Positions 20-39,471 of a stretch of DNA of 64,000 bases are shown piece by piece. Position 1 is the first letter of the stretch, and each line of letters opens with the position of its first letter. The stretch spans positions 28,272,001 through 28,336,000 of the forward strand of contig OX442314.1 of the NCBI GenBank assembly GCA_949358305.1, given 5' to 3'. Source of the stretch: Strigamia acuminata. Its lineage: Eukaryota. The notes under the pieces were generated by a model. The model was not told the origin of the DNA. It worked only from the letters and a program-made list of their open reading frames with translations, and ran no database searches. A program made the position numbers and the translations under genes.

Positions 20-514
20 CTGTCTTATCTTTATGTGTTGTAAATTGCTTGAAATGTTGCTTTTCATCCAGAAATCCGTATAATTCTCAACATTGATTGC
101 TTCAGAAATCATTCCTTTCAGTGGTAGATAACAAAGAAATAATATTTGAAAATCGCCTTTTCCTTTCGAACTTTCATCTAGTTTTTGCCAGTAGTCGGAC
201 AAAGAATTGGTATCGAGGCCAAAGTACATCAGTTCCGGGAATGTCAGTTCACCTATTGGAACATATTCAATTTCAACTTTGAAATGTCCAGCAATGTAGT
301 ATTGAATTCTTTCCATTGTTTGATAACAACAGACGGTGAAACAGACGATCAAAACAACTAACCATACCGCACGGATGAAACCACTCTTTTTTTTGTTGAA
401 AACATTGTCAATAAACTTCAAACTATCTTTGCCTGACAAGGAAGTTTGCATTTCTTGATGCACAAACCGACGGATATGGCTTCGACGAAACCTAAAAGCA
501 TTCACTACAGTCAT
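20..514 (-). CDS. First coding exon of DEG/ENaC-like channel paralog A (gene continues off the left edge)
   Basis: ATG at 514, open 495-nt exon ending at CAG|GTATT, same length as exon 1 of copies B and C. Hand translation MTVVNAFRFRRSHIRRFV...IRAVWLVVLIVCFTVCCYQTMERIQYY...LTFPEL shows a TM1 and the post-TM1 FP motif. Missing from the ORF track because the frame runs off the window. Confidence 0.85.
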
Positions 515-4391: not shown

Positions 4392-7300
4392 TTAGTATCT
4401 GGTTTTTTTAACTCGAGAATATGATGGGAAATGTGCTTTTATATTTATTCCGAGTACCATAAACTGATTTACTGTCTTTTGCAATAATTCTGGAATTGCT
4501 AGAATTGAAAGGCCAAGCATTAGTGCAAAAGAATTTCCAATATCGCAACACAGTCCAACTGCAGTGTAGGATAATATTTGTGTAATCTGTTCAATTATGT
4601 TATTCATTGGAATTAAACCAAGAACCTTGAGTGGAAGTAATTCAGGATGTTGAATGTACACATAAGTGTCAAATATTTGTTCTTCGCAAAGTGGATGGCA
4701 TCCACAGTCTTTCGTTACGTCAACTTTTATGGAATTCTTCATGAATAGTTGTAATGAAGAAATTGCTTCTTCAGCATTTGCACAGATATTATTTGTTACA
4801 TTATCCAAAAATGGTAGCCTAAAATTATAAAGACTTATTACAATCCGGTGCAGTAACTCATGATGCCTTCCCCTTCGACTTTCCCCATGGACCTCCTCCG
4901 AGTCCTCTTGAACCAGCCCGAAAGAATTGGCCACCTTTCACTCCCTAAGATGGGTATTTTTTGACCCAGATTCTGCGCATGCGCAAAATCCGGGTTTTAG
5001 GGAATTCCGAACATCTAGCAAATGGGGTTAGATTGTCTATTCATGTAGTGAACGCCATATGGACGTGGTGGACATGATTGACATTAGCGGAGCCTGCTGA
5101 TGATCATAATTTTTGACCTTTGGATTCCTAAGATGGGTCTTTTTTGACCCAGTTAAACTGAGTTCAAATTATAGAAAAACATAAAAAATTAAAAAAATTT
5201 CAACTGTGGTATAGTGTCTGGTGATGTTTCAAAGGAATAGTCACCAAAAATCAGATAAAAAAAAATTATTAAAATAATAATTTTTTTAAAACGGGGTCAC
5301 AAAATGACCCATCTCAGGGTTGGAAGGGTTAATGTTTGTAAACTTAGATTCTAATTTAACCAAGAACTTGAAAAAAAAATTAGAGATAGACACACGACAG
5401 TCTTATTTTGCAGTCTGATGTCACCCTGATTAATGGTGTAAGCCAGTGCAGCCCTGAATTGTGGGAAAGAATTTTTATTTCTAACTCTAGTACTCCTGGA
5501 CTTTGATGGCCCAAGTAGCAACATGCTCACATTCAAATCTGTAAAGAATTACGACTCACTTGCATCGAACAAAATTATGAATCATTTTTTTATAACAATC
5601 ATCCTGGCATCGTTTGTATTTGTCATGGTCAAGACAAGGTTGTGCTCGTAAATTTAATCGAACAATCTAAAAAAGAGCAAATGTATCAAGAGTTTATGTG
5701 TAATAAACTGATGTATTACTTTAATCATTTTAAATGTAATAATGACAAAGGTGTTATCTACAACATTTCTTCTACTTCTGAGAATTGATGGTATTTCAGC
5801 ATCATTTTGTCGAAAGTATATCTACAAAAGAAATTACAATTACCAACAATTTCTACATTTACACATGTAACTAAACATAACCGCAGTACAAGTACACCTG
5901 AGAAACCCGTCCATCTAAACAGTTTACCATTAACCATGACTTTCCCTGAAACTTATACATTACGTTACGTTTTCCACATACTCTCAGTGGTGAAAAATAT
6001 TATAAAGAACAGTCACCATAACCAATCTGTACTGAAGGACTATTACAGAATTGATCAAAACATACATGACGGCACACTGATCTGTTTAGTCTTGTAGTCA
6101 GTTTGATTAAGATCTGGAATAGCAGATATTGGTAGCAACTATTCTAACCAGATTTTTTGAATTGAATATTCCATTCTTTTATTATCATTTTTACCGTACC
6201 GAATACTTAAAATTGCAACAACATTTTTCAGTTCTCTTTTAACTGAATTGTAGCTAAATAATGGTCGAATGTAGAATCATATCTTAACACCATGATTCAT
6301 TACGTACTTTATTTTGTTATCTTTAAAAAATTATATGAAAATTGGTCATGACATGAACTTTGTTTTGACCAATATTCCATTTATTTGGCAAGAAGTTGTA
6401 CATTACTTCATACTCATGCTGATTACATATTTGACCTGCCAATGGTCGCAGACTAAAAAATATTAGTGAGCCAACTCCGGCAAATTGCAGTGGTGCTGCA
6501 ATAAGATAATGCTCGCATTAATATTTTATGTACAATTTATATAAAATGTCTATTTATCTACCGATGTCAGATTGAAAGCATGTTCCAGTTGGCATAGCTA
6601 TTTTACTCCATGTTACATTAGTTCTTACTCCCGCACCCTGAAAAAACATTTATGATCAACTATGATCAATCTAGGTTACGTTTGATGCACCGGTACAGCA
6701 GATCCTCAACTTAATGTAATGGTGTGAAATAAAGGAGTACTACTCAGTTTGATTGCTTGTTAACAAGTGGTCTTTATTATTTTCTCCTCAAACGGCTTTG
6801 TCATTGGCCTTGACATTACCGCCCTCTAGTGGGCTATTGCGACACTACATCCCTCCCCCCAATACATCTTTGAGAGACATTACAATACAATAAATTCGAG
6901 GAAAGACCATCAGATCACACAATACATAAAATATCATTAAAGATAGATTTTCACATCACATACAATTTCACTATTTCTTCTTTCCTCGAGACGTCGATAC
7001 AAAGTTCCCGTGCCATGCAGGTGTCGATCTTTGCGACTTCCGTAAAGCCACCGGTGGTTCAGCTTGTTGTGGCGGCTCAACATGAAGCATCAGCTCGGCT
7101 TGGGGTATCTGTTCTCTCTGGGGTCTCAATTCCTCATCAAGCAACGGCACAAGTTCAGTTTGGAGCGTCGGCACCAGCTCGACTTGGAGTGTCGGCTCCA
7201 TCTCCTCCTCCTCAGCCACCTCCCTCTCCACGACAACTTTCTCATCCATCTCCTCCTCATACTCCCGACCATTCCTCTCCTTCCCTCCTTCAGGTTGTCC

Positions 7301-10300
7301 ATGTATCCTTTTAAAGAAAGAAGCGTGCCAAACGACAGTTTGTGTCCCTCTCCTAGTTCCAATCTGGGATCCTGCTATCGATATTATCTTAAATGGTACC
7401 AAGTCGTACAGGGTGGTCAATTTGTTCATCTTTTTTCTCTTGATTAAACTAAATTTCCCATTGCCAAATTGTGTTCCTTCACTTGTCTCTTTTCATCTGC
7501 TAACGTCTTCATCTTCATCTTCCTTTCTTCATCTCTTTTTCTCACCAATTCATCCTCTTGTAGTGCGAATGTTTGCGGTAATCTGGTTTTTATCGGTCGC
7601 CTAAACAACAATTCGGCCGGTAGAACACCTGTCGTCGCATGCGGTGTTGCCCTATAATTCAGCAGGAATTCACCAATTTCTTTATGCCATCTCCGGCCCT
7701 CTGTCACGGCCTCCAAGATGGCTTTGTTTAAAGTCCTCATAAAGCGTTCCACTTCACCATTGGCCTCTGGCCACAATGGCGTCACACGCTAATGTTGTAC
7801 TCCCATGTCCTTTAAAAATTCAGCAAACTCGCCTGATGAAAATGGCGGCCCGTTGTCCGACTTAATAGCCTCCGGAATACCCAATTCCTTAAAACGTATA
7901 ATTGTATTACTTGCTATTTTCTTATTTTGAAGCAATCCCTAGTACAAAACTTGCAACCATTGTGGAAATCGCTGAAATAAAGTGATTAAAGGCACTGTTG
8001 TGACGGTATACAATGGCTATAAATGCTTATTTTTTCACCGGAAAGCACTGTTACGCCATTATGGTGGTATTTAGGCTATATTTGCTGTAAAACTGATAAA
8101 CGTCTGAAATAAAGTTATTTATGATGTTTCAAATACAAAGATGTTCGTTCATTAGGAATAAACACTCATTTTTACATGACACTAAAGTATCACGGCGTAA
8201 TTACGAAGAGTCGTCTGCTAAACCCGCATTTGTCAATGCTCCATGCTGCCACTAGATGGCGCGATTGCAAATTAGAGGTAAATTCGAATACAAACTTGAA
8301 GACCTCATGATTAAGTATAAACATACAAGATGTTTCGTTTAAGACTCCCCAGTCAATTTCCAGAATAAGTATATGTTTTTTTAAAAAACCAAGCAGATTA
8401 TTCTATAGCAAAGTTCGGATGACGAATCCAATGGTGTAATCATATTTCACGCCAGACATGCAACAATGCACTTTTCATTTGCTAAATCGTTAGCTGGTTA
8501 AGATAGAGCAAAATTTCCAATTACAAAGTTGTAGAGCACCATCAAATTAGTACTATCCAACTTATCTTACAAGGGGAGAGCACCAATAAGCTATCACAGA
8601 TTGTTGTAATATTAAACAAGAAGGATTGTTAGATCATGCTGAATGAGACCCTAAAATAATTTCATTCCATAAACAGCCAACAATGCAAACAATGAGCTGA
8701 AAGTTGGCACTATTTTGTCTGTGTATACATCAAATCTGAGCAATCAGGCCTAGTGTATGAATACTGTAAACAACAGTTGCTAGGTAAAAAATAGTTCCAA
8801 GATCCAAGTTCAATTTTATCATTTGAGATTCAATGATGTCATTTCCTCTTTTGATATCACATGACATATGACATCAGAACTTTGTTCAACAACATGACTG
8901 TCTTCATGAAGACAATAATAGTTTGTAGTGGTGGTCCAGTGGTTAAGGCAATGGACTAGGTATCTTTCCACACAGGTTCAAATCCTGTTGTGTGTGAAAA
9001 TTTTTACATTTATTTTTTGTTAAATTTTAGCAGTTATTTTAATGTTTGTAATTTTATATTTGTTTTCAGAAAATTTTAATTTGATTAATTTTAATTTTTT
9101 AACAAATATAAAATTACAAACATTAAAATAACTGCTAAAATTTAACAAAAAATAAATGTAAAAATTTTCACACACAACAGGATTTGAACCTGTGTGGAAA
9201 GATACCTAGTCCATTGCCTTAACCACTGGACCACCACTACAAACTATTATTGTCTTCATGAAGACAGTCATGTTGTTGAACAAAGTTCTGATGTCATATG
9301 TCATGTGATATCAAAAGAGGAAATGACATCATTGAATCTCAAATGATAAAATTGAACTTGGATCTTGGAACTATTTTTTACCTAGCAACTGTTGTTTACA
9401 GTATTCATACACTAGGCCTGATTGCTCAGATTTGATGTATACACAGACAAAATAGTGCCAACTTTCAGCTCATTGTTTGCATTGTTGGCTGTTTATGGAA
9501 TGAAATTATTTTAGGGTCTCATTCAGCATGATATAACAATCCTTCTTGTTTAATATTACAACAATCTGTGATAGCTTATTGGTGCTCTCCCCTTGTTAGT
9601 CATCTTAAGTTAATTTTTTCATTTTAAAATGAAAACAAATCAGTTAAAATAAAGCCAGCCATTGTGGCAAAAATTAAATTTCGACTGCAAAAGTACTGAA
9701 TTTCTTCAATAAATGCATTCAAATTTGCATTATTATGCAAGTAAACAAGAAAAACCACTGTATTTTTTTAATGCCTAAATTATTTTATTTTGTAAGAATA
9801 AAAGTTTTCAATTTGCTGATGTTTTCCTTTTTTTAAAAAAAAACAACAGTTAACTTAAGGTGACTAAGATAAGTTGGATAGTACTAATTTTATGATTCTC
9901 TACAACTTTGTAATTGAAAATTTTGTTCTATCTCGACCAGCTAATGAGTTAGCGAATGAAAAGTGCATTGTTGCATGTCTGGCATGAAATTTGATTACAC
10001 CATTGGATTCGTCATCCCTACTTTGCTACAGGATAGTCTGCTTGCTTTTTTAAAAAAGCATATACTTATTCTGGAAATTGACTGGGGAGTCTTAAACGAA
10101 ACACCATGTATGTTTAATCAAGTGAATGAATTATTTTAAACATTAATATAAATATATATTAATATCTGACATTGTTGAATACAATGTAACTTCCATTTTC
10201 TGCGGAATAGAACATTTGATGATCAAACAAATCATTCGAATGATCTGATTGGTGGAATCCATTTCCGGTCCTGGGTATCCAGTTTCAGTTATAACCGGAT

Positions 10301-13300
10301 TAGCATAATCTGCATTATGCTCCCCCGTATCCACTTCCAGTATTACGGGATTGGTGGGATTCACGGAAAGATCAAATTATTGACACCCACAAAACAATTG
10401 AAAAAACCCACAAAAGTATTTAATTCCAATTATACACCAATTATTCACACACTATTTTTATTTATTTTTCCACCAATTCTAGTTATCAACACCCCAAAAA
10501 TATTTATTTCCACACTGTTTACTTATACACTATTTCTCTTGATTTTGCCACCAAATATTAAACATCCCCTAGTTTTAAGTTTGCATGTCTTATAGAATGT
10601 TGGACAAGTACAAGTGGCTTCATCCCATTTGTCCCCAGTCATGGTTACAAACCAGAGGGAGTGTACGTTTGTCGGTAGGTATCGAATCGGCGCCAATTTT
10701 GAAGTTGGGTCTGCCTCAAACTCAAGTATGTGCCAATGTCTTGTTCACGCAGACAATGACCAACATGCCACCCAACAAAACGATTCAAGTACTCCTCCTC
10801 AAAGTAATCCTGAAAATCAACAACACTTGTATCCGGTCTCCACTTCTTCAACAATAGGCCTTTTGCTACGTCGAACCTGCAGATATGGCATTGAATAGAA
10901 ATGCAAAGTCATCTTTAGTTTCTGATTTCACAACAGCAATGTAGGTAGGATGAAACGTACGATTCGCATCTGAGCACCCCGCAACCAACACAGGAAAGCC
11001 CTGCCACAAAAGCTTGTATGTCGCATCGGTTTGAAGTGTTGAACACTTTTCCTGTATGGCTAGCAATCGTTTTGTGGTGTAGCAGAACCGAAAATAATTA
11101 TCCCTTCCATCATCGTCGAAAACGTCATGAAAACGTTTGGAAATCGATAAAAAGTCTTGTAAACGTTTTGGGAAAAATAATGGAATTTGGGGGTTACATT
11201 CAAGGATTTGGGGACAAAATCAATATGTGTGCATTTAAATATTTTCGGTGTTTTGGAAAATATAAATAGGGTGTCGATAAATACAACCCATTCATGGAAC
11301 CCATGTTCCAATTGGATAAGTGGCCAAATCACTTAATCCAGTCCAGGGTATATAACTCCTGACAACAGGAAGTTAGTTAGTTGTATTTGTTTTCTGCACC
11401 ACACTACAGCTGTTCACACCCACGACTTGAAGCCTGCAAGGAGTATCCCCGAAGAAGTTAAGCAGAAAATTATAAAACTGCACCAGAATGGCGTCACACA
11501 ACCTATATTAATTCTGCGCAAGCTTCCTGCAAGGCGTTCGTTGCACTCCATGTGAGCCGATTTTTTCGCTCGGCCAGCTGCAACAAAGAATTGAAGCCGA
11601 TTCTACGAGGCCACTTAGTGACGATGACGCGTTTATACTGCAACAGGGATTTAAAATTGGCGACAATGATGAAGACTGCTGGTTTAGGATTTGTTACACA
11701 GCAAATCGGTTGTTACAAATTAGTTTTAAATGCGAGATGTTGCAAGCGGATGCAACATACAAACTAAACTGGCATGGTTTTCTCGTTCTAATTGCAAGCT
11801 GTTCTGATGGACATCGCGTTTTCCATCCACTTTGTGTAGCTGTCTGCAATGCAAGTACAAGACCGCTGAAGACTTTGCATTCATATTTCGAGCCTTGTCG
11901 AATAAACCCGCGACCGTTTTAGGTGATTGTGCAGTAGCAATCACTAACGTGAGCAATCTGGTGTTTGGGGCTGACACCGTACAAGTCTATTGCTGGGCCC
12001 ACGTAATACAGAATGTTGATTTTAATATAAATAATTTTAATTTTTTAACAAATATAAAATAACAAACATTAACTTTACTGCTAAAAATAAATAAAAAATA
12101 AAAGTAAAAATTTTCAACACACTATTGTTGCCTTCATGCAGGCAGTCATGTTGATGAACAAAGTTGTGATGTCATATGTCATGAGATATCAAATTACTTG
12201 GGTTCCAGAGTAAGGTTTGAACAGGCTAATCACCAAGTGTAGTGCTACACTTGACTTTTTTACTCAGTCTATTTGCATGAAAAATGAACTCCCACAGCCA
12301 ACAAAGTTCTACTTTGGCAATGTCATTGTTATTTAACTCTAGCTTAAAGAGCAAAATGCTTTGAAATGGTTAAAGAACTACTTGTAATTGTTATCTCACA
12401 TAATTAATTTTAAAATTTTAAAATAGCTTATTAGCGCTCTCCCCTTGTCAGATGATTGGTTAAGTGTTGGTCACTCAAAAGGAACATGGAATGCGTTAAT
12501 GTGAAAAAGTTCGCTGTGACGCCATCTGTTTCTTTGCAGCATTACACAGACTGCTACAATTGGAAACAAACTAAACCATGTGTGATTATCCGGTCAGCTG
12601 AAAATGTGAAGTCACCCCGAATGGACAGCCTTGTTTAAATGACAACCCTATTGACACATATCTACGTCAGGAGGAACGAAAAAGCTGGCGCCAATTTGAG
12701 ACATACATCCAGTCAAGAAATTGTTTGTGGCATGTGAGGATTGCTAACAATGAATATGGTGTCGCTTTCTGTTGTGTAGCTAGTTGTGGTTTTGAGGAGA
12801 TAAGCCAGTGACGAGCCATCTTAGATGAGGGTCAAGACAAAAGTCGTCTTTTTAATACTCTACTTTTACAAGGGAGGTGACTACTGGTGCGTCACAAACA
12901 AAATGGGTGTAACAAACCCCTTGTTACACTTAACAATAAGCTTATGCATAATCTCGCAATCATGTGATTGGATGCAGAATGCTGGGTGCATTCGTACTCA
13001 ATCCTTAATATTGGCGCCCTATTAAAACACTGGTGCCAATACTGTTTAATTTACTGTCACGTCTGGAACTCAAGTTGATGTTTTTCCATGGTTGACTAAT
13101 TAATTTGCGCAGTTGTTAAGTTCGCGCAAATGGGTCGCAGGCTCGTGAGAACGTTCGTAACAATGCCGCCGCGCAATATGGACGGTTGGCGGTAAAACGC
13201 TCTCAACTCGCTGTTATTACAACTAATATTTTTACGACAGGTTACTCTACTTACAGTTGATGTTGTTTGTAAGAATAAACGTGCACTGGGTCAAACTTCA

Positions 13301-16300
13301 ACATGGGTGGAGAATGATAGCCAGGCATGGTAAAATATAGGAAAAGGCATTAGGTTTGCGCAATAGGACTAGTTTAGGATGAATGCGGTGTTTAGGCGCA
13401 AAGAGAGAGAGAGGTTTGACATTCTCGTTCCACTGAACCAGGTGTTGGCAGTTCAGATGGAAGAGGAGAAGTGTGGTTATTGTGGTCAGCAAAGCTATAA
13501 GTAACCTCCTGGTCAGGTGATCAGAGGGCCAAACTATTTGTGTGAATAATTATTTATAAGAGGAGGGGGAAAGTAGAATTAACTGTGATTGTTGGAAATA
13601 AATGAGATGCGCAAGAAGCTTCATGCGCATATATTGTTAGAATGAGTCAGCATCAATGAGTCATTTAGGTTAAATAACATAGGAAATAATATATAAGATG
13701 TTGGAAGAGTTTAACTAATAAGAAAGAAAGGGGTAAGGTAAAAGAAACATGATGCGCAAAGAATTATTTGCGCCCATTCAAAGTAGAATAACTTAGGAAC
13801 ACTGAAATGAAATAACAGAGAGAAAAAGGTAGGAATAATATAAATTAAGAGAAATTAGAATGGGTTGTGAAAACCATGCCCATGACATCCCCCACCCTTT
13901 AAACTTTAATTACTTTGTTTGTAATTAAGGCAAAAAGAGAGAGCATGCGCACTCAAACGATACAATCATAATCAAAATAATCAAAAATAATACAATGAAA
14001 TTATAAATAATCAAAAATGAACATGTAACCAACTAAAATTACTGGTATAACTCAAAAAGTATTAAGAACAATTCAATATTCTTTTGACAAGTGACAATGA
14101 CATGACATGGACGATACGGGAGGACATGTACTTAAAGAGTTATGGGTCAGACATCACATGGACAGACTAAAAGGGACTCAAATCAATGATATTTTCATAA
14201 AATAAACAATAATAAAGGCATACCAAACCTAGAACATCAAATCATCAGAAATAACCATAAATGAAATTATAATGAATGAATTCTCGACCCGAGAATGAAA
14301 ACGAAAAAATCGTACTTGATGGTTTAGGTTGATGGCTATCACACTGAAAATCAGGATAAATGATAAAATTAAACAAAATAAATGAATGCACTTCAAAATA
14401 AAAGTCTTAATTGTTCGCTAACAGTCTTTTCGAAGCACAAAATCATAATAACTAAAATTAAACACTTCACAACGTTGAATTATCACTGTGATGAAACTTA
14501 TTTGCGCAAAAAACACTTACTGTTTCTAGCAGTTTGTAGAATATTAACACATATGAACACAAAGTTATTTGTTGAACACAAAATTTACGGATTTGAATTT
14601 GGCGGTCCATCGCTGAGTGATAACCCACGTGATTTTAGCTATCCTCAAATGGTTTCTAGATGGGCCGGGATCCGTAAATGTTTCAAGGTATTGGAGGCAA
14701 TGTTGACCACTATTTTCTGGGCCTTCTCACATGTGGTGGCCCCCCCGAAGGTTGATTTCAATTACAGTGGTCGAAAATCATCTCACCATACCTTTGAAAG
14801 ATCAAATCCAGGAATGGTTCCGTTTCAGTGGGTGGTATGCGCAAATCGGCATAGGCCAATGAGCGAAACAATTGCTTCTGCATATTGTTTGACATACCAA
14901 ATTACACACACACTCGGGTGCCCTGCATGAAATTGCAAATAATTCCAGATGCTGGCAAAGGCTGGGCATCAGCTCGAGTGTGACGGTCGATTAGAAAGTC
15001 ATCCCAACCATGTGGTCCTTGAAAGACACTAACAGCTGGGGCAAACATTGCATTGTAGGAAGCGGTGCTCTATATTTCTTTGTTGTTGTTGGGCAGCTTT
15101 CTTTGCAACGAATTTGGCAGCTTGTTTATCAGCAAACTGTCTGTATTCTGCCAATTGTACTTTATCAGTTGCGTTCTTGATGTCTTGTGGTCACTGTTAC
15201 TCTTCATTCTTTATGCGCAAATACTCCATGGCTCTGTTGTTGGTGTGGTGAAAACACTACAGGTGACTAAGATACTGCGCAATGGGATTTGCGCGTATGT
15301 AATCGGTCCAGGTGTCGATTTCGAAATGCTCACTGTGGGGTTGTTATAACACGGTGATGCCGTGACAACTCGTGGAACCTGTAGATGAATTCAAGTTATT
15401 AATTGCACTCGTTACTGGTTTAAGTGGTTATTGAGGTCGTTGAGGGCACACGATGATCATTGGAGAGCACATTCGTTCTTGTCGCCTATGATGGAGCCAA
15501 ATGATCCTTCAACAGTGCCGGCATTTGTGCACTTGACAATGGTCCTTTGGTCGTTGTTGATTGCTTTTAGCCAACGGATGGACTGGTTAATAATCTCGAT
15601 CTCGATTTGCTGCACATCTGTGATTTCCGCAGATAGTAGATTCAATTGCGCAACCATTGTTCCAAGCGTTGTTTTTCCAGGAATGTATCTGGCACAAGTT
15701 CTGAATGTTCATTGGCGATGTCCTTGGTCCAGTTACAAGCAAAGGCGACATTGGGAAAGTGTTCATGTATTTTTGCCCAATTTGATCATTCGGATTGATG
15801 TTGGCCATGTTGGTTTCCGCTCGAATGTGCCTATTTGCTCAACGACATATTTATATGTGAACAATAAATTCAACCACACATCACAATCGTTATTCACGAG
15901 ACACAAACAGAACACGCACACAACGTATAAAATATGTAGTTTGAAGAATAATCACACATTTCTCAGCGCGAACGCATCAAGAAATTCTTATGAACTAATA
16001 GTTGTTATCACATGCACATATGTGAGGGGAAAATCATAAACAAGTTGTTGTTGAGATTAAATTTCTATAGTTTAGTATAGAAGAGAAACTTCTAGTGAGA
16101 AGATGTAGAAACTCAAAGAATGTTAAACTGTGAGAGTTGCTTACCACATAGTTAAGTTTAGTCAGTTTAACTTGTGCTTGGAAACATAAAACATAAAAAC
16201 ATAAAACGAAAATAATTTTTTGCGAAAATGAAAACTGCGCATAGTGCATCACATTCGGTTTTTTTTTTTTTTTTTTTTTTGTATTGATATAAATATTTTA

Positions 16301-18109
16301 AACAAAATACTCGGTAAGGCTTTTTGGTTGTTGTAGCGCCGATGCTGTCGGTGGTATGGGCCCGAATCCACCGCATTTTCCAACTGTCTGTCTCTAGCAC
16401 TGGTTTTTGCTTGACGATGTCCAACCCGAGGTACAAAGTTCAACCCCATCCAAGATGACATTAACACGGGCTTAGGGGATGGGATTTGGACGTACACATT
16501 AGGTCCATTTGATCATCGGGTGGTGCTAGACATGATATTACTGACATTGATGTAGTAGTTGAACTCATGTTGGAATCAATGGAAATTAGTTAAGATGATG
16601 AAACAATGGGCAAGGGAAATAGTTCAAAAACAAGAGTAGGAAAGATTTAGTTACTTTGGTAACATAGAAGAAATAAATCAAAGTCCACGACGTTGGATTA
16701 TCGTCGCGGGGTTTTGCGCAATTTACAACACAAACACATAGAAGTTTTTAAGTTATTAAAGAAATATTTGCCCAATTGTAACACTTCAATAATCCGCAAC
16801 ACTGAACCGGCACCTAAACCGCCATATTGTTGAGCAACGAAAGTCTGTTGACACTACAACACTCGGTTGACGTCGCCGGGTCCAGTTGTCGTCGCCGGGT
16901 CCAGTTATCGTCGTGATTCGTCGGTGGTATTTCCAATCATTCTCATGAAATATCCTTGTCCCTAATTTAATCAATGCAAAAGTCAGAGTTCTATAATTAC
17001 GCCATATTGCATCTAGATGAAATTCAGGTTCAGAAATGCAAGCAGTCAGTCTCCGTGGGTATGCAGAGAAGCCATATTCATCTTTGTATCACAGTGGTCA
17101 AAGTTGCGGCAGATGGCTCAGCAGATTGAACTGAAGGACTCACATTGGTCTGGCTCAGATGAAGCATCAACGACTGTGGGTGGACTCAACACACTCAAAA
17201 TGGTGGTGGTATCTGGAATGTTTAGATCTTTGGACATCACAAGTATTAATCACAGAAATAATGACGATTTCGTAGCTGTCCTTAAAGTTCAGGCATCAAT
17301 GCAAACAATGGATCACATACCAATGCTGTTGGGTGCTCCAATACAATTGCTGAACTTGTAAAACTGTTTGCTGATGTTAAAAGGCGATAACACATTACCT
17401 TAACACGGCACACAACACCAAACACACCTGACAAACGGTAGTTCAATATAGTGTTGCTCTAACCAGGATAGTATGCGCAATTGAAATTGCGCTTTAAACA
17501 AGGAATGATAATCGTATATTCATGCTGCCTCTGCTGACACAAAGATCCGAAGGCAAGGTACCACTTGGCACCTTGCAGTAGTGTTTGCATACACTATAAG
17601 CCCCAGAAGTGACCTCAGATATGGAATCCTTAGTAGCAAAGTTCAGTGTTCCTCACATTTATGGCACAAAGATTCAGAGAATGGCGTACTGGATTCCAGT
17701 CCAGATCCATAGCAAACCAACTATTGTTTAGAAATAAGATGTGGGTGGTCTGAAAGGATACCTAGGTGACAGCTGGGTACTTCAGTTGGTTTGTTTGCCC
17801 AAATGGGGTCTCTTGATGCACAATGAGTAGAAACAAAGCTGCGCAGTAAAATCATGACCTGCCGCATCCCTGACAGCACATGGAGTACAGTAGACTTTTA
17901 ATTCAAAGTGAAACACCCAAATGCACGTCACAATGCTGATGGTCACCCTGAGCTGGAAGCCTATGATGGTGCTTACAGATTGTTTAATACTATGAATGAT
18001 TGGTAATAAACACTTGGAAAATAAAGGTGAAAGAATAAATTAAACAATAAAAACGATAAAACAATTAGAAACAAAGATAAACAAAAATATAGGTGGGTAG
18101 CACTATTTT

Positions 18110-18144
<35 letters not shown>

Positions 18145-21100
18145 GTTAAGAATGATATTGAAAAGATGTGAAATAAAATATTAAAGAAACAAAAACAGAA
18201 TGATTTAAAGTGATATTATAGTATTATGGTCCACTAACAATGATATTAGGGCTGACTAATTTAAAGGATCTTGAAAATTTCACTTGTTTGCAAGTCTGAA
18301 GCCATATTTGGATGTTATTTTCATATTGGCAGACAGGGGAATTAATTAATGACTATTTTTACAAATTCTATTCATGAAAATGGGGAAAAACTACATCATA
18401 TTTTCTTATGCATATCAAAATCTTGCGCGCTTATTTCAAATTATTCTAGATCTAAAAATAATATTTGAATAATTAAATATAGTGTTATCTCACGTGACCA
18501 TGGATCTGAATTCTGGGCATTGATGATTTCAGCGGCGCTTGTCAAGAGTTTGAAATGTGCATGTTCGGCTGATGAAATTTGTTCACTTCCTGTCCATTTC
18601 CTTTTAAGTTTTCCTTTTCACTTATCCTTTCTCCTCGTGGATGACCTTTTGATGATGTTCTTGGCATTAAAAGTTTATCTTTTTGGTCTTTCCTGACTAT
18701 AAGTTCTTGCACAATGATCCACATTAATTGGTGAACTCGGAAAAAAGGAATGATGAGGGATTTAGTCTTTGACTTGATGTCAACTGTCCGACAGGAGTAG
18801 GAATTCTAATTCTTCTTTGTCCTGCTAATGTATTTATCATCACTGGGGGTGATGTATTCAGTTCCAGTGAATTTTGAAGTTCTTCAGGCGATTCTATCAT
18901 AATGTGCGCATCCAATAAAGTGATCAAGTCTACTGGTGACACCTCTGATTTATCCCTGGCAATAGACTAATTAGGTTTCATTTTAGTGATTTTACTCACC
19001 AATTTGTCACAAATAGGAGTTTTCAAATCAATTGTCCATGAATTGTTTGTTTGATGAGATCAGGAACAACAGTCTCCAATGACTAGTCCAGACTCATTCG
19101 CATCCCTGCAAATGGAGTCATGTAAAGGCATCATTTAACGTTCCTTTCGGTTGCGCAATCTATCGAAAAGTTGTTTAGACATGGCACAGGTTTGAGCACG
19201 AGGATCAAGCAGTGCAACACAAAAAATGTCTGTGCACATAATCTTGATGTATGGTGCCTTGTTCTGTTGCGGATGTCTTCTCACAAATTCAATGATTAGC
19301 TTTGATGTTAATAGATGTCAGTTGGTTTTAAATCTTGTGATGAAGAAAATTCCTTTGATGAAAACTTCACAAATCCAACATCATCCAGAGCAGTTAGTTG
19401 GTTCCTTATGAATAGAAGACTAACACTTTCTCTGGAAATAAGGCTATGTGAATTAGACATTTTAAGAACAAATTTACAATTATTGGGTTCCTTAATCCTA
19501 GCACTAACAATTTCATTATTAGACTAAGAAATAAAGTTAGATTCAAATTCAATAATTCTAGCACTAGCAACTAGGTCAAGAATAGAATCAAAGTCACTGA
19601 TATTTAAAGTCAAATTCAGGAAAAATCAAAGCAGAATTTAAAAATTAAGATTAAAAATCAAAATTAAAAATTAAAATTAACAAAGTTCAAATTCAGAAAT
19701 GAGATTAATAACTTTATACTCCCTAGGAGTTGAGATTAAACATGATGAATGTTGATTGGACACTGTGATACTTCACTATTTCTAGAAAATGATGAAGTTG
19801 ATAATTAATTCATACTTCCCAGAGTTGCTAAACAGTGCCCTCGAATGATTGAGGCTATTGGGTCCTAGTTTGGCTCTCTAAGTTCACAATTCCTGGTTGG
19901 GTGCTTCCTTCCTTCCTTTGATCAAGTCCTAGAAGTAAATCTCGCAGAAAGGAAGAAAATACTTTAAACTAAGAACACTGTCCAACTCCTGGGAAAGTTG
20001 CAGAGTTAGAATCCCTCTTCAGCTGCAGCACTGTGGGATTTCTAATCTCGGCTGACAAATGTCTTTTAATCAGTGATCTTCTTGGGCTCGAGCAGCAAGA
20101 GATCAGGTGATGATGGAACATGTTCCCGGGTTTCTAGGAGTCTTGCGCGTGTTGGATCCGGTTGCTCCCTTCTTGGGTTGTCCATGCTGATCATTGACTT
20201 CCAATTGCTGGATTTATCCGGATGTTGAGTGTATTGTTGACTTCCAGAGGTAATGGTACCGGTCGTAACATTAAAAACTGCAACTAACTGTTTCAATAGT
20301 GGCGCAAGGCATCTAGATCTGGAGAACATGGGCAGGTTTGGTCTCTTCACCTCCTTCAACTCTTCAACAGGTTTAGTTATGATTGTGTTCCCCGGTGGCG
20401 TCATAATTGCACGGATTTGTTGCGCCGTGACAATTAGTACCCTGGTTTGATAATCAAAATTATTTAGAGTTGAACAATCATACGTACTTCCTGTTAGGAG
20501 TCCATTTTCAAATGATGTTGAGTGGCCTTGTTCCCTAATGAATCCATGTGGGGATCCACTTCCATGAAGCTGGGTAGTTTCAGGAATTTGGAGGGCTTAA
20601 GCCTTGTTGGAAAATGTTGCGCAATTCTTCCATAAAAATTCCGAGTCTGTGTGAAAGTCCGCTTACGTCCTTGGCAAGGTTAAAACTTCAGAAAATGGTG
20701 TTATTAAAGATGAATACCCTGGTGCATGTGCAATCCTCTCCATTGTAATCGGTATGCTGACACTGTTCAGTATGGGTGTAAAGTTATTCAATGTCACTAA
20801 TGGCGTCGAGGTATTTTTTGCGCTATCACGTGAAGGGCGGACATCTTGTCTTCTTCTTCATTTCAAACTCTTACCAATGCAGCAGAAATCCAAGCTCATC
20901 AGAATCTAAAAAGACTACGCAATAGGCACTGAGACACTAGGTGCTCAGCGCCGTTGCTTTCCAACCGACTCAACATGATAAACAATGAAAAATAATAATA
21001 ATATAAACTAAATATGATAGGAAAATATACTAGTGTTTCTCACGCTTGTATGCCTATGTAAGCAGCGAATCCTGTCAGGCTCGCCAAGTTGTCACGTCTG

Positions 21101-24100
21101 GAACTCAAGTTGATGTTTTTCCATGGTTGACTAATTAATTTGCGCAGTTGTTAAGTTCGCGCAAATGGGTCGCAGGCTCGTGAGAACGTTCGTAACAATG
21201 CCGCCGCGCAATATGGACGGTTGGCGGTAAAACGCTCTCAACTCGCTGTTATTACAACTAATATTTTTACGACAGGTTACTCTACTTACAGTTGATGTTG
21301 TTTGTAAGAATAAACGTGCACTGGGTCAAACTTCAACATGGGTGGAGAATGATAGCCAGGCATGGTAAAATATAGGAAAAGGCATTAGGTTTGCGCAATA
21401 GGACTAGTTTAGGATGAATGCGGTGTTTAGGCGCAAAGAGAGAGAGAGGTTTGACATTCTCGTTCCACTGAACCAGGTGTTGGCAGTTCAGATGGAAGAG
21501 GAGAAGTGTGGTTATTGTGGTCAGCAAAGCTATAAGTAACCTCCTGGTCAGGTGATCAGAGGGCCAAACTATTTGTGTGAATAATTATTTATAAGAGGAG
21601 GGGGAAAGTAGAATTAACTGTGATTGTTGGAAATAAATGAGATGCGCAAGAAGCTTCATGCGCATATATTGTTAGAATGAGTCAGCATCAATGAGTCATT
21701 TAGGTTAAATAACATAGGAAATAATATATAAGATGTTGGAAGAGTTTAACTAATAAGAAAGAAAGGGGTAAGGTAAAAGAAACATGATGCGCAAAGAATT
21801 ATTTGCGCCCATTCAAAGTAGAATAACTTAGGAACACTGAAATGAAATAACAGAGAGAAAAAGGTAGGAATAATATAAATTAAGAGAAATTAGAATGGGT
21901 TGTGAAAACCATGCCCATGACATTACATACAATAACAACTAAATTTACTTTTGAGTGATATTTGTCATTAGTGCTCAAAATTTTATTTGGTTTATAAACC
22001 TTTCGTGATTGGACGATATGTTGTGTGTATTATGATGGGCCCACACCTGCGTAATATTGCGATTTTGAAGCACGTTTCCGCGATGTTATTCAGATGTGAA
22101 CCCATCTTTAGCGGAATACTTACCAAAGTAGCAGCGTTCATTACTAGTTTATCCATCACAGGCGTTTGGAATCGCCACACATCTTCTATTGATGGTTTTT
22201 TATGATTTATAGTCATGTTCATTAAATTGATAAAATGAATCTTGCATTCATTCATGCCTATTTCTTTAGCATATGTGCGCCTGTATTTAGTCATTAAGGG
22301 TCCATCCATACATGCAATTAAATTGGGTAAATACAATGTGTGATTTTCTTGAATGATTACCACATATCTTGTCGGCTCACTCATATATAATGCAATTCTT
22401 TCTTTGCTCACATAAATTGCCAATATTGCAGAAGTAAATATAAGAATTAAATTCAATGTAGATTGCAGTAGAAGTTTTTTTTGTGGCTGCTGCATCACAC
22501 CTCGTGAATCACCTTTCTTTTTGTCGATGACCAAACGCATTTGCTTAGTAGTTTTCTTTTTTATGCTCGCTTTAAGTTGAGCAGGTCTGATGTATTTAGA
22601 CAAGATGAGAAGAAACATTTGTGCAATTTCAATTAAAGACAGAAGAGAAAATCCCAAAGAGAATCCCAAATTGCCTCCAAAATCGATCAATAAGTTTGGA
22701 ATGGTGTAAATGTAGGTTTCTGTCATTCTGACAAACAATTCTTCCAATACTTTAAGATTGAGACTTGTTAGACCTTTGCCATTTGGTTCATCTTGAAAAT
22801 CTAACATAAAACATAATAATTTTGAGAATGATGCATAAAAATAGAAGATATTATAGTTTAACTTGTATCAGAATAGAATATAAACAAATAAACATTCCGT
22901 TCACAAGGTCTCAAGCAACCACATTCAAACGATGGTAGTGTAGTTATTTCATGGAAATATGCTTCTTCATACATTTCAGCCACAATTGATTTGTTTGACT
23001 CTAAACTGCAATCCATCAAAGTTTTGCTGGACATAAAGGGGAACCTGGTAAGCCAAAAATCAATGAGTTTATCAATATTTAGATGTTGCATGCAATTAGA
23101 CCTGCATCGTTGAGGAGTTTTTTTCCTCACACAATCTTCGTAGCATTGGGTTTCCTTTTTCTTATCCGGTTCACAATAGGGATATCTCGAAGGTAAAAAT
23201 TGATACTACAAAAAAACAAATGCAGCATTACTATTGTTGGTGCTCCATCACAATAAACAAGATTGAAAAACTGGTATCTAGTATATTCAAACGTACCGTA
23301 CCGCCCCGTTTAAACGCCCGGGCGTTTAATTCTTTTTTTTAGCCGCCGCCCCCGGCGGCTATTTGAACTAAAATGAACCGGGCGCTTAACCAAATAAAAA
23401 GTGCCAAATTAGTTTTCGGGAAAATAAATGGTCAAAAACAGATTTCGTAGGCGCCAAAACGATGATTTCCCAGAAGAAATGAAGCAATTGAACAGTAAGA
23501 TGTTAATATATTTTACCGACGGGAAATAGTACCGTCATACATAACGTATTCGGCACTTTCGGTACGTTATCTGATCGTAATTTAACAATTACCCGGCGCC
23601 AATTTGAACCCCGGCGTTTATACGGGCCAGGCGCCTATAAACTTTTGTGGCGATGACTGCCAGGCGCTAAAACGGGGCGGGCGCTTGAATGAACCCGGGC
23701 GTTTAAACGGGGCGGTACGGTATACACTTTTGTAATGCACTACAAATTTCACAATATCTGCAACAGGTTAATTGAGCTTACACTTCGAATGAAAAATTGC
23801 ATATCAGATTCAATTCCTGACGCCACTGAGAAAGTATATTGGTAAGTCATGACGCCAACTACCGCTGTCATCTAATATTCAAGTGTGTAAAAATAAAAGT
23901 CTAAGTTACAAACTCCAATAAAATAGTAAAAGATGAAATTCTTACCGAAATCTGTGGGTTGACACAGTTGGTGCTATTCGTTTTAAAAAGCAAGTGTAAT
24001 TTCATGTTTAGTGCTAATTTTCGATCTGTAGAATTAGCCAAAAATATTAAACCTTCAAAATTATTTTATTTTGTTTTTATTTCTAACCAGAATTAAAGAC

Positions 24101-25342
24101 CAAAGATCGTCCAGTTACATCATTTCGATAGCTTAGTGAAATTTCTGTGTTATCCTTTCTAGAAATTCCTTCTTTAATTGTTGTTTCATGCAATACAGTT
24201 TTGCCCTGAAAGATTATACGATTATAGATGTAATTCAGCAGATTACTGTATACATATAGAATACACACTACACATACATGTGACGCCAATAATCAAGTAG
24301 AGGGCACCTGTGCCGGGTACGATCTAGACTTGGCTTTCAGGTTATACTAGTTAGTATGTCTCTATATTAAAATGCTTTCACCAAATGTATGTATGTACAT
24401 ATGACTTACAACTTTTAATGAATTTATCACACAAGTCAGACATAAACAGACCAATGGCCCTGAGATAAGCCCTAGCCTACATGGGGTGATCTGACCCAGC
24501 AATGAAGTGGAGAGGTTTGAGTAGTGCAGGGAGTCCTGTTGTGGACAAGGAACAGGGATGTGAATAATTTTCATTCCCCATATTATAAAAAAATTATGGC
24601 ATCATGTTCATGAATTTACTATCATTTACTGTCATTTACTGTCAGCAGTGTCATGTACTACTAACACTTGTTTTGCCTTATTTTTTAATAACAATTTTTA
24701 CTTATGGTGACAACTGTAGGATGCTGGGCTTCAGCATCACAGTGACCAATCCTCTGGCATCCCTTCATTAAAAACTAACAATTACAAGAACAGTTTCATA
24801 ACAACTAATATCCGATCCAGTAATAAGAAAATAATAAGATTAAATACCTGTCTTATCTTGACGTGCTGTAAATTGCTTGAAATGTTGCTTTTTAACCAAA
24901 AATCTGCATAATTTTCAATTTTCACAGCTGCAGAAATCATGCTTCTCACTGGCAAAATACATTGACGTAATCTTTCGAGTTTGTCTTGCATTGAAGAAAC
25001 TTCTTCCATTTTTTCCCAGTATTCGGACAAAGATCCGGTATCGAGACCAAATAACCTAAATTCTGCGTATGTCATTTCACCTATTGGAACATATTCAATT
25101 TCAACTTTGAAATGTCCATCAAAGTAGAATTGGATTCTTTCCATTGTTTGGTAACAACAAATGGTGCCACAAACGATCAAAACAACGAACCAAACAGCCC
25201 GGACTAAACTTCGCTTTTTTTTGTTGAAAACATTATCAATAAACTTCAAACTATCATTGCCTGACAGGGAAGTTTGCATTTCTTGCCGTACAAAACGACG
25301 AATATGACTTCGACGAAGCCTAAGAGCTTTCACCACAGTCAT
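4392..25342 (-). CDS. Double-domain DEG/ENaC-like channel, paralog B (11 exons, about 867 aa)
   Basis: Hand-spliced exons (all GT-AG, phases consistent): 25342-24848, 24205-24088, 24025-23946, 23871-23782, 23205-22863, 22800-22124, 6637-6562, 6495-6407, 5821-5720, 5666-5560, 4818-4392; total 2604 nt with no internal stop found. Motifs: TM1 (AVWFVVLIVCGTICCYQ), Cys-rich thumb (CYEDC...CGCLRPCE), TM2 (YTIPNLLIDFGGNLGFSLGFSLLSLIE), second TM1 (LILIFTSAILAIYVS...YMSEP...YLPNLIAC), TGTCF, second thumb (CQDDC...RCKLPFL...CGCHPLCEE), second TM2 (YTAVGLCCDIGNSFALMLGLSILAIPE). Every exon length matches copy C. Confidence 0.85.
4935..5328. mobile_element. piggyBac-like MITE remnant in intron 10 of paralog B
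   Basis: Right end gacccatctcagggttggaaggg|ttaa; degenerate inverted copy on the left (cctttcactccctaagatgggt...tgaccc); absent from the homologous intron of copy C (about 44170). Confidence 0.55.
6715..7890 (-). mobile_element. Truncated Ty3/Gypsy 3' end: integrase C-terminus, PPT and short 3' LTR
   Basis: Integrase text SDNGPPF...TPLWPEANGEVER...YRATPHATTG (7444-7890, with a stop). PPT at 6850-6860. LTR 6715-6849 (135 bp, TGTA...TACA). Confidence 0.8.
8570..9595. mobile_element. Foldback element: 495-bp inverted arms, 36-bp spacer, TTA target duplication
   Basis: tta|caaggggagagcacc ... ggtgctctccccttg|tta; arms 8570-9064 and 9101-9595 with one mismatch noticed. Empty site (cttatcttagtcatc) at about 52074-52088. 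Confidence 0.9.
8925..9005 (+). other. tRNA-derived (SINE-like) segment with Pol III A and B boxes; mirrored on the minus strand at about 9160-9240
   Basis: A box TGGTCCAGTGG (8932-8942), B box GGTTCAAATCC (8975-8985), T5 run at 9001-9005. No convincing cloverleaf or anticodon arm. Confidence 0.55.
10580..11330 (-). pseudogene. Decayed MULE (Mutator-like) transposase
   Basis: Fragments LQTDATYKLLWQGFPVLVAGCSDANRTFHP and DFQDYFEEEYL..FVGW lie in different frames. Confidence 0.75.
11400..12760 (+). pseudogene. Second decayed MULE transposase, interrupted by one arm of a foldback-family element
   Basis: LQADATYKLNWHGFLVLIASCSDGHRVFHP, LGDCAVAITN and YCWAHV, with frameshifts. Confidence 0.75.
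12030..12447. mobile_element. Diverged single arm of the 8570-9595 foldback family
   Basis: Similar to 9090-9310 (ttttaattttttaacaaatataaaat...gtcatatgtcatg) and has the same terminus gctctccccttg; the tRNA-like block is missing. Confidence 0.7.
13055..21922 (-). mobile_element. Non-autonomous Ty3/Gypsy-derived LTR element (8868 bp)
   Basis: 833-bp LTRs at 13055-13887 and 21090-21922 (TGTCA...TGACA), apparently identical. TSD TTAC. PBS TGGCGAGCCTGACAGGA (21070-21086, tRNA-Arg-like). PPT at 13888-13896. Interior has no long sense ORF; protease relic APYIKI..VALLDPRAQTCAMS at about 19070-19260. Confidence 0.9.
23296..23720. mobile_element. MITE with CCGTA-type TIRs and TA duplication in intron 4 of paralog B
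   Basis: ta|ccgtaccgccccgtttaaacgcccggg ... cccgggcgtttaaacggggcggtacgg|ta; absent from copy C (about 48525). Confidence 0.9.
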
Positions 25343-26951: not shown

Positions 26952-27071
26952 TAAATTCACTGCTTACCGGTAGCTAAAAACTTACCTCGCGATATGATAA
27001 GTGATGATTAACGGTAGTCCGCCATCCGCCATCGTCACAAGTGTTTTTCTTCCGTTTTTGATCTACTAACT

Positions 27072-28661: not shown

Positions 28662-29317
28662 AGTCCCCCTTAAATATATGTTAATACCTGTATTAACATA
28701 CTATTTATTCCGAATATCTTGAGGATCAAGACCACACTGTCATCTAGGGGACTCGAGCTGTAATCCTTGGTAAGCAAAAACCTTTATTTTATATCTTAAT
28801 AGTATAAATAAAGAGTATTTCTTAATCAAATGCTTCAAAAAATATTTATTAAGGTTATAAAACTTTCAATTATCAATAATAGCTTCCATCTCTCTTTACA
28901 GGTGGACTTACAACTGCATCAAGAAAAGGCGATAACTTAAACTAACATCAAACTCTTGTACCAAACAAATGATTAATAAAATTTAACAATTATTTTCACA
29001 AAACTTAACTTCTCACTGGAAATATAATGATTTGCAAAATAACACTTTACACGTTAAAATTCAAGTATTAAAATTAGTATTCATTTAAACAAACTCACAT
29101 TGACTCGTAATCAAATTTTAACAAAATTGTTAATTTAAATATTAAAGATCTTTGAATTATTCACAAAAACGGCATAAAATACACCTGAACCTGACTAAAT
29201 CTTTGTTTCAACTCGGGTCAAGAAATGGAGATGGAGAAAATGGACTCGTTACTTCTGGTCTTGCCTTAAAAGGGAAGATATCGGGAAAGTAACGGATCCC
29301 GACATCGTTGACGCTTT

Positions 29318-36548: not shown

Positions 36549-36554
36549 TTTTTT
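36514..36554 (-). promoter_or_regulatory. -1 programmed ribosomal frameshift signal
   Basis: A AAA AAC (36554-36548) directly before the gag TGA, a 7-nt spacer, then stem GGGGGTTG/CAACCCCC. The -1 frame reads LIQGVVQVAQPPLKELFPF into pol. Confidence 0.85.
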
Positions 36555-39451: not shown

Positions 39452-39469
39452 ATCTCGGTGGAACCTCCA
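39452..39469 (-). promoter_or_regulatory. Primer binding site complementary to the tRNA-Gln 3' end
   Basis: TGGAGGTTCCACCGAGAT, 2 nt from the 5' LTR; complements ...ATCTCGGTGGAACCT-CCA, the eukaryotic tRNA-Gln 3' end as recalled. Confidence 0.8.
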
Positions 39470-39471
39470 CG

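What the first reader, a model, noticed from the sequence alone, without database searches (positions are those of the whole stretch)
22124..22800. Natural two-subunit DEG/ENaC concatemer: TM2 of one subunit runs into TM1 of a second inside a single exon
Seen: exon 6 (22800-22124; also 48031-47355) encodes a DEG/ENaC TM2 (YTIPNLLIDFGGNLGFSLGFSLLSLIE), a Lys-rich linker of about 40 aa with no stop, and then a new TM1 with its post-TM1 motif (LILIFTSAILAIYVSKERIALYMSEP...YLPNLIAC). Downstream exons supply a second Cys-rich thumb and a second TM2. Both complete paralogs share this, so it is not a merger of two neighbouring gene models. Known: DEG/ENaC/ASIC subunits have two TMs and assemble as trimers. 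Inference: a 4-TM covalent heterodimer cannot fill a trimer evenly. It may recruit a third free subunit, form linked pores (3 chains, 2 trimers), leave one domain outside the pore, or be cleaved in the linker. I do not know of a characterised example but cannot search the literature.
Basis: partly seen in the sequence, partly recalled or inferred. Interest (0 to 1): 0.92.

Follow-up and report, generated by a model that had tools for sequence, protein, structure and literature searches.

The report
Two ion-channel subunits in one chain
Two intact gene copies in a likely centipede genome each join two different DEG/ENaC ion-channel subunits into one predicted protein chain, an old arrangement shared by many centipede genes that would likely fix two of the three positions in a channel normally built from three separate subunits.

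Summary
Confirmed. One open exon (22800-22124; paralog 48031-47355) encodes a DEG/ENaC TM2, a basic 42-residue linker, and a second TM1. Both genes give 11-exon, 867-aa models with canonical splice sites. A profile built without window sequences finds two full-length modules in each. It is a family: 18 of 32 hits span the same junction, 17 of them Strigamia maritima proteins, mostly 20-30% identical. First and second modules form separate clades, and 4 of 5 introns correspond between modules, pointing to one old fusion of tandem paralogs followed by whole-gene duplication. Module 1 keeps the pore-gate Gly-Gly. Module 2 usually replaces the gate glycine with Asn/Ser, as alpha-ENaC does. Best guess: the chain fills two trimer positions and a module-1-like subunit fills the third (inferred, about 50%). 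Three-module chains occur separately in shrimps and a midge. No RNA or functional data were available. Nine literature searches found no natural multi-module DEG/ENaC described.

The parts
22124..22800 (-). Gene A exon 6, the fusion exon: end of module 1, linker, start of module 2
22598..22714 (-). Gene A module 1 TM2 (aa 405-443) with gate Gly-Gly and G-F-S belt
   Evidence: Pfam ASC 404-453
22472..22597 (-). Gene A basic linker (aa 444-485), predicted cytosolic; donor-like GT at 22512 and 22500
22397..22471 (-). Gene A module 2 TM1 (aa 486-510)
   Evidence: hydropathy, HMM 4-104, Atlas on the paralog
24848..25342 (-). Gene A exon 1: ATG, N-terminus, module 1 TM1
22863..24205 (-). Gene A exons 2-5 (24205-24088, 24025-23946, 23871-23782, 23205-22863): module 1 extracellular domain and Cys-rich thumb
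6638..22123 (-). Gene A intron 6, 15,486 nt (369 nt in gene B), with mobile-element insertions
4392..6637 (-). Gene A exons 7-11 (6637-6562, 6495-6407, 5821-5720, 5666-5560, 4818-4392): module 2 extracellular domain, thumb, TM2 with Asn at the gate position, stop
47355..48031 (-). Gene B exon 6, the fusion exon (TM2 47945-47829, linker 47828-47703, TM1 47702-47628)
48094..50898 (-). Gene B exons 1-5 (50898-50404, 49005-48888, 48825-48746, 48671-48582, 48436-48094): module 1
43639..46985 (-). Gene B exons 7-11 (46985-46910, 46843-46755, 46457-46356, 46298-46192, 44065-43639): rest of module 2
20..514 (-). Exon 1 of a third paralog, running off the window end; 72% aa identical to gene B exon 1

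Best explanation
These genes encode, in one reading frame, two different complete DEG/ENaC modules joined by a short basic linker, predicted to make a four-TM chain that likely fills two neighbouring positions of one trimeric cation channel, with a third, module-1-like subunit likely supplied from outside the chain. Shown: the gene structure, two full modules, the family, and the pore-motif asymmetry. Inferred origin: two tandem paralogs of one ancestral gene fused, so that the last exon of one and the first exon of the next became exon 6. The fused gene was then duplicated whole many times in geophilomorph centipedes. Inferred function: the fusion fixes a heteromer with one module 2 per pore. 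Module 2 (Asn/Ser at the gate Gly, Ala/Ser at the next Gly) would act as the single alpha-ENaC-like subunit, and Gly-Gly subunits would fill the other two places. The third subunit could be a single-module paralog, module 1 of a second chain, or a module-1-only splice form. A sensory role is a guess from the nearest solved relatives, the centipede antennal channels BRTNaC1 and PDPNaC1.
For: Two full-length modules per chain. The junction is matched in one stretch by 18 of 32 hits: 17 are S. maritima proteins and 1 is a 241-aa protein from a 1154-base ENA contig. The distance from G-x-S to the post-TM1 motif is 65-99 aa and Lys/Arg-rich in all 22 junctions measured. On the careful tree, first modules form one group (11 rows, 87/91) and second modules another (7 rows, 97/91; P0006 module 2 sister at 88/76). 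Four of five introns lie at matching alignment columns (172/175, 217/217, 320/326, 374/374) with equal phases. Purifying selection between A and B: dN/dS 0.61, p=0.001. Across the junction in two DNA runs, 23 of the 40 listed variants are synonymous (22% expected; p=1e-6), 0 create a stop, and no indel is listed. AF2 model of the S. maritima relative P0014: pLDDT 71, pTM 0.64, two modules linked by helices; module 2 aligns whole to BRTNaC1 (Z 20.9, 328 aligned, rmsd 4.9) and module 1 to ENaC beta (Z 11.4-11.8). Gate Gly-Gly is present in 12 of 12 first modules and is replaced by Asn/Ser in 6 of 7 second modules, plus P0038. Alpha-ENaC has Ser at both positions where gamma has Gly. These positions match PDPNaC1 Gly375 (gate) and Gly378 (selectivity) (PMC12714832, passages). 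Engineered ASIC1a two-subunit fusions give currents in oocytes (PMC4529235, passages).
Against: No transcript of the window genes was seen, and the relatives are automated gene models. Module 2 alone shows weaker constraint between A and B (dN/dS 0.68, p=0.11), and the linker sequence is near neutral (0.92). Module 1 support on the tree is moderate (87/91), long branches meet, and in the quick tree P0006/P0013 module 2 and P0010 module 2 fell elsewhere. One second module keeps Gly-Gly (P0005), and 2 of 7 keep the next Gly. The structure is of a stand-in 25% identical to the window protein, and the relative position of the modules could not be inspected. Engineered fusions also gave cleavage products, so their currents may come from fragments (PMC4529235). 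The alpha-ENaC parallel is an analogy from motifs only. Several loose ends suggest some genomic copies are interrupted in this exon.
Confidence: 0.52

Rival explanations
1. The chain is self-sufficient: three chains build two linked trimers (M1-M2-M1 and M2-M1-M2), or two chains build one pore with a spare module left outside.
For: It needs no partner. Engineered two- and four-subunit ASIC1a fusions conduct when expressed alone (PMC4529235, passages). Module 1 of a second chain has the Gly-Gly pore needed for a third position.
Against: A pore with two module 2s would put two Asn at a gate whose radius is 0.39 A in closed PDPNaC1 (PMC12714832); this steric argument is inference. Linkers of 25-55 aa with a helical prediction may be short for bridging two trimers (inference).
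Confidence: 0.25
2. The gene is a polyprotein or mixed-isoform locus: the modules work as separate subunits after cleavage in the linker, an internal start, or use of the donor-like GT in the linker. Co-expression, not covalent linkage, is what is selected.
For: A GT at the same offset in both genes scores 5.0 and 4.4 (true donors 4.5-9.2) and would give a 481-aa module-1-only protein. Met463 is shared by A and B. The linker sequence is unconstrained.
Against: That isoform stops in exon 7 of 11 and is a likely decay target (established NMD rule). Linker acceptors score at most 4.5, below all true acceptors (6.6-12.1). Seven of 22 measured junctions have no Met in the linker interior. There is no R-x-x-R site in aa 440-490, and the linker is predicted cytosolic.
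Confidence: 0.13
3. Module 2 is a non-pore accessory: a tethered extracellular sensor or trafficking module whose TM2 no longer lines the pore.
For: It has lost the otherwise invariant gate Gly in 6 of 7 copies and has no pre-TM1 His-Gly segment.
Against: Module 2 keeps Asp-x-Gly, the G-x-S/C/T belt, the thumb cysteines and the full fold. The same substitution occurs in the pore-lining alpha-ENaC. PDPNaC1 conducts without His-Gly (PMC12714832).
Confidence: 0.08
4. Artefact: two adjacent genes or pseudogenes that only look fused.
For: Multi-ASC database entries are often merged models (my general knowledge), and P0019 and P0023 among the hits look like such merges.
Against: The junction lies inside one exon in both copies. 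The window has no Ns. The frames are intact and under purifying selection. The same junction is present in 18 divergent relatives.
Confidence: 0.02

Closest known systems
Centipede antennal DEG/ENaC channels BRTNaC1 (PDB 8YMR/8YMW, heat-activated) and PDPNaC1 (PDB 9JF7, proton-dissociation gated), Scolopendra subspinipes mutilans
   Same: Best PDB sequence hits for exon 11 (E 2e-7, 7e-5), among the top hits for exon 6, and best fold matches for the P0014 model. Same compact module size, and PDPNaC1 also lacks His-Gly.
   Different: They are single 421-431-aa, two-TM subunits, and PDPNaC1 is a homotrimer (PMC12714832, PMC9974506). Here two modules, 17% identical to each other, share a chain, and the second has an altered gate.
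Heterotrimeric ENaC (alpha-beta-gamma)
   Same: Fixed heteromer with an asymmetric pore. Alpha has Ser where gamma has Gly at both TM2 positions, matching the module 2 versus module 1 pattern.
   Different: ENaC subunits are separate genes and proteins with large finger domains. The likeness is an analogy, not orthology (not tested on a tree).
Engineered ASIC/ENaC concatemers (e.g. ASIC1a 2x, 3x, 4x fusions, PMC4529235)
   Same: Head-to-tail covalent subunits with an intracellular linker, reported functional in oocytes.
   Different: They are laboratory constructs that keep the full tails. Here the fusion is natural, heteromeric, old and expanded, with a short linker.
Natural tandem-repeat channels: K2P (2 pore domains, dimer), two-pore channels (2 repeats, dimer), Nav/Cav (4 repeats) (recalled, no call)
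   Same: A subunit gene duplicated and fused so that one chain supplies several pore positions.
   Different: There the repeat number divides the four-fold pore. Two modules do not divide a three-fold pore, so a partner, a spare module or linked pores are required.
Uncharacterised S. maritima UniProt models (T1ITA9, T1J963, T1IPM9, T1ITL7, T1JD34, T1JEH2, T1JF12, T1IP81, T1IT41, T1JD59, T1JEG4, T1IYF0, T1JF29)
   Same: Same junction. Those placed on the trees share the module order (T1ITA9 and T1JF29 were not on the trees). T1ITA9 is 64% identical over exon 6.
   Different: They are listed as uncharacterised proteins and many are truncated. None of the searches found them described as two-module channels.

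Membership tests
DEG/ENaC (ASC, PF00858), per module | ASC profile match along the whole module | tested here: met
   Pfam hits on exons 1, 6 and 11 (above the curated cut-off for 4 of the 6 such exons); full-length custom HMM domains; Atlas
DEG/ENaC (ASC, PF00858), per module | TM1 - large extracellular domain - TM2 | tested here: met
   Hydropathy peaks at aa 45-63, 424-442, 486-504, 816-834; fold of the relative P0014
DEG/ENaC (ASC, PF00858), per module | Cys-rich thumb | tested here: met
   Cys clusters at aa 272-362 and 701-770 in both genes, aligned to the profile
DEG/ENaC (ASC, PF00858), per module | G-x-S belt in TM2 | tested here: met
   G-F-S in module 1, G-L-S in module 2
DEG/ENaC (ASC, PF00858), per module | Gate Asp-x-Gly-Gly | tested here: inconclusive
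   Met in module 1; Asn replaces the second Gly in module 2, but alpha-ENaC departs there too
DEG/ENaC (ASC, PF00858), per module | Pre-TM1 His-Gly motif | tested here: not met
   Ser-Gly in module 1 and nothing in the linker. PDPNaC1 lacks it too (PMC12714832), so it is not strictly defining.
Canonical DEG/ENaC subunit (whole chain) | One ASC domain and two TMs per polypeptide | tested here: not met
   Two domains and four TMs. The chain is therefore filed as a variant built of DEG/ENaC modules, not as a canonical subunit.
Canonical DEG/ENaC subunit (whole chain) | Assembly as a trimer around one pore | not testable with these tools
   The full chain plus a partner exceeds the size limit of the complex tool; needs cryo-EM or subunit counting
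Canonical DEG/ENaC subunit (whole chain) | Voltage-independent cation current, amiloride block | not testable with these tools
   Needs electrophysiology
BRTNaC1/PDPNaC1 centipede clade | Grouping with these channels on a tree | not tested
   Their sequences were not in the script box; only best-hit and fold evidence

The most novel reading that the evidence does not exclude
Arthropods have repeatedly hard-wired DEG/ENaC stoichiometry by gene fusion. Centipedes carry a large family of two-module chains that act as pre-assembled two-thirds channels with one alpha-like pore module and an open third seat, which a variable partner could fill to make a combinatorial sensory receptor. Decapods and a midge carry three-module chains that would be whole trimeric channels in one polypeptide, the three-fold counterpart of Nav/Cav.
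Probability: 0.4. Interest if true: 0.92.

Novelty: new variant of a known kind. Interest (0 to 1): 0.8.

Why it matters
DEG/ENaC/ASIC channels are described as trimers of separate two-TM subunits, and covalent versions appeared in my searches only as laboratory tools. A natural, old, expanded family of two-module chains with a built-in pore asymmetry poses a symmetry puzzle (2 into 3) that can be tested directly in oocytes and by cryo-EM. It shows which linkers evolution tolerates, and it exposes an overlooked candidate sensory-receptor family in centipedes. It also warns that multi-ASC database entries should not all be dismissed as merged gene models. The three-module chains in shrimp would be natural single-chain trimers.

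Tried and rejected
No genome is held for this window, so copy number and free single-module partners in this species could not be counted. Run search: no RNA holder listed. The two listed runs cover introns and behave as DNA contigs, so they say nothing on splicing or expression, and summed depth was not used as copy number. Word-index protein searches: exon 6 against longer proteins gave none of 1761 candidates; near lengths gave only P0001; the family alignment gave 3 of 7929. No other myriapod with the junction was found, which is weak evidence only. Pfam and PDB phmmer miss the second TM1, which I put down to low sensitivity given. Complex prediction of P0014 module 1 with module 2: no answer (0.07, mark 0.34, alignment not used), not used either way. 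The AF2 model of the shrimp three-module protein was too poor to use (pLDDT 42, pTM 0.31). A third module up- or downstream of genes A and B was sought and not found, and an in-frame stop lies 3 codons before the ATG. Furin-type cleavage in the linker was rejected (no motif). Hits P0019 and P0023 were set aside as probable merged models, and P0017 (midge) may be one too. Earlier findings of the scan: nothing by sequence, and two unrelated Naegleria notes by words. The careful tree left out 13 of 47 rows as gappy, long-branched or near-duplicate: P0030_M1/M2, P0021_M1/M2, P0010/13/15/24_M2, P0018 Mb/Mc, P0023 and both gene A modules. No test_one_clade was run.

Full report
Observation. The minus strand carries two complete paralogous genes, A (25342-4392) and B (50898-43639), and exon 1 of a third (514-20). 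Each complete gene has 11 exons with GT-AG introns of matching phase and gives an 867-aa protein without internal stops; A and B are 86% identical. Exon 6 (22800-22124; 48031-47355) is open in one frame only. It encodes the end of one DEG/ENaC module (TM2, aa 405-443), a Lys/Arg-rich linker (aa 444-485), and a new hydrophobic helix followed by a post-TM1 motif. The window has no Ns.

Two complete modules. Pfam ASC hits exon 1, the TM2 part of exon 6 and exon 11, but not the second TM1, and a PDB search with that part alone finds nothing. More sensitive tests do find it. A profile built from 17 modules of related proteins, with the window and its closest relative left out, matches the exon-6 ORF at its C-terminal end (HMM 314-372, iE 2e-11) and then at its N-terminal start (HMM 4-104, iE 4e-14). 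The same profile gives two full-length domains in each spliced model (aa 46-443 and 488-843). The ESM Atlas places aa 100-225 of the exon with ASC clusters at 0.95. Both modules have a Cys-rich thumb, and the chain has four hydrophobic helices. The two modules are only 17% identical.

It is a family. A profile of the two exon-6 proteins against 1.84 billion representatives gave 32 hits, 18 of which match TM2, linker and TM1 in one stretch. Seventeen are Strigamia maritima proteins and one is a 241-aa protein from a 1154-base ENA contig that appears to end at the same intron (inference). The nearest, T1ITA9, is 64% identical over exon 6, so the window is likely from a geophilomorph centipede (inference). 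The others are about 20-30% identical to each other. The distance from the G-x-S belt to the post-TM1 motif is 65-99 aa and basic in all 22 junctions measured. Most of these are automated models and many are truncated.

Origin. On a careful tree of 34 of 47 module rows, first modules form one group (11 rows, 87/91) and second modules another (7 rows, 97/91, with P0006 module 2 as sister at 88/76). All Strigamia-type rows group at 97/97, apart from shrimp, millipede and midge rows. The quick tree of all 47 rows agrees in the main (98 and 84) but places three second modules elsewhere, and long branches meet, so support is moderate. Four of five introns of module 1 lie at the same alignment column (within 6) and phase as those of module 2. 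The simplest reading is one old fusion of two tandem paralogs, in which last exon and first exon merged into exon 6, followed by whole-gene duplications (inference). A separate Strigamia clade (T1IZL2, T1IU28, T1ITG7, T1IL99) has re-amplified one module into chains of two or apparently three similar copies.

Selection. A versus B gives dN/dS 0.61 overall (p=0.001), 0.53 for module 1 (p=0.006), 0.68 for module 2 (p=0.11) and 0.92 for the linker. Contigs of two DNA runs laid on the junction show 56 variants, of which 40 are listed: 23 are synonymous (22% expected, p=1e-6), none makes a stop (chance 0.12), and no indel is listed. Some loose ends suggest interrupted copies. So the frame is kept while the linker sequence drifts.

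Structure. The spliced window protein could not be folded, so the relative T1JD34 (791 aa, 25% identical per module) stood in. It gave pLDDT 71 and pTM 0.64, with TM2 continuing as a helix, a short linker helix, then a long second TM1. Its second module aligns whole to BRTNaC1 (Z 20.9, 328 aligned, rmsd 4.9) and PDPNaC1 (Z 19.6, 313 aligned, rmsd 3.3), and its first module aligns to ENaC beta (Z 11.4-11.8). How the two modules pack could not be read from the output.

Pore asymmetry. All 12 first modules keep Asp-x-Gly-Gly-Asn. Six of 7 second modules have Asn or Ser at the second Gly, and 5 of 7 have Ala or Ser three residues on; P0038 adds another Asn/Ser case. These are PDPNaC1 Gly375 (lower gate, equal to cASIC1 Gly436) and Gly378 (selectivity) (PMC12714832). 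Human alpha-ENaC has Ser at both positions while gamma has Gly. I infer that module 2 is the one-per-pore, alpha-like subunit. The window's module 1 also has Ile at the degenerin position (position recalled), where relatives have Ala, Ser, Cys or Thr.

Mechanism and rivals. Best: the chain fills two neighbouring seats and a Gly-Gly subunit fills the third (0.52). Single-module centipede paralogs with that motif exist (T1JAY0), and a donor-like GT shared by both genes could give a 481-aa module-1-only form, though with an early stop. Rivals: self-assembly into linked pores or with a spare module (0.25); separate subunits by cleavage, internal start or splicing (0.13); module 2 outside the pore (0.08); artefact (0.02). 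Engineered ASIC1a dimers conduct, with cleavage products also seen (PMC4529235). Nothing about assembly, gating or expression was tested here.

Elsewhere. Three-module chains appear in Penaeus vannamei (1001-aa ORFs on five Logan contigs of 3.4-4.0 kb plus RefSeq XP_069977668; middle module reduced), in Halocaridina rubra (aligned module by module, 26% identical) and in Polypedilum vanderplanki. The rows kept on the tree fall outside the centipede group, which suggests separate fusions.

Literature. Nine searches listed no paper on natural multi-module DEG/ENaC proteins; the library lacks most subscription papers. Seen: PMC12714832 (abstract, first of nine text parts, passages); passages of PMC9974506, PMC4529235, PMC5203786, PMC8438182, PMC7067487, PMC10507113 and PMC4244043; a term search with no hits in PMC3583452. 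The Strigamia genome paper has no hit for ion channel, sodium channel, degenerin or amiloride. The insect PPK survey notes 46 of 578 proteins with three to five predicted TMs without comment in the passages read. Its supplements and those of PMC10507113 were not read and may list such proteins.

Verdict. A real feature and a new variant of a known kind. The architecture is well supported at DNA and family level; the assembly model is inferred. Interest 0.8.

Noticed in passing
P0030, P0033-P0037 (Penaeus vannamei), P0021 (Halocaridina rubra): Homologous three-module DEG/ENaC chains (three TM2 motifs) in two shrimp lineages. Five Logan contigs of 3.4-4.0 kb carry the 1001-aa ORF unbroken. Candidate single-chain trimer; the Penaeus middle module has a much reduced extracellular domain. 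The fold attempt failed.
   Followed up: partly
P0017 (Polypedilum vanderplanki KAG5672929.1): 1460-aa protein with three complete pickpocket-like ASC modules and short linkers; could be a merged model.
   Followed up: partly
P0002, P0003, P0016, P0018, P0029 (S. maritima): A clade in which one Gly-Gly module is repeated in chains of two and apparently three similar copies.
   Followed up: partly
window 22687-22689 and 47918-47920 (aa 414): Module 1 has a bulky Ile at the degenerin position (position recalled), where relatives have small residues; in other family members such residues favour opening (recalled). A Val variant is seen in the DNA runs.
   Followed up: no
window 27069-41062: Gypsy-type LTR retrotransposon between genes A and B: 1594-bp LTRs 99.9% identical, open gag and pol (RT, RNase H, integrase), and an extra 555-aa ORF at 30985-29318 with no Pfam match.
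   Followed up: partly
window 13055-13888 and 21090-21923: Identical 834-bp TG...-type repeats inside intron 6 of gene A, likely the LTRs of a recent insertion; they help explain the 15.5-kb intron.
   Followed up: no
window 44289-45831: Tc1/mariner element with inverted ends and an open 333-aa transposase in intron 10 of gene B.
   Followed up: no
window 2550-3782; 61332-63107: A non-LTR-type reverse transcriptase ORF, and an integrase fragment with a 568-bp near-perfect tandem duplication.
   Followed up: no
window 46100-51200: Many variant contigs at 90-99% identity over the whole gene in two DNA runs suggest further close paralogs in this species; not a copy count.
   Followed up: no
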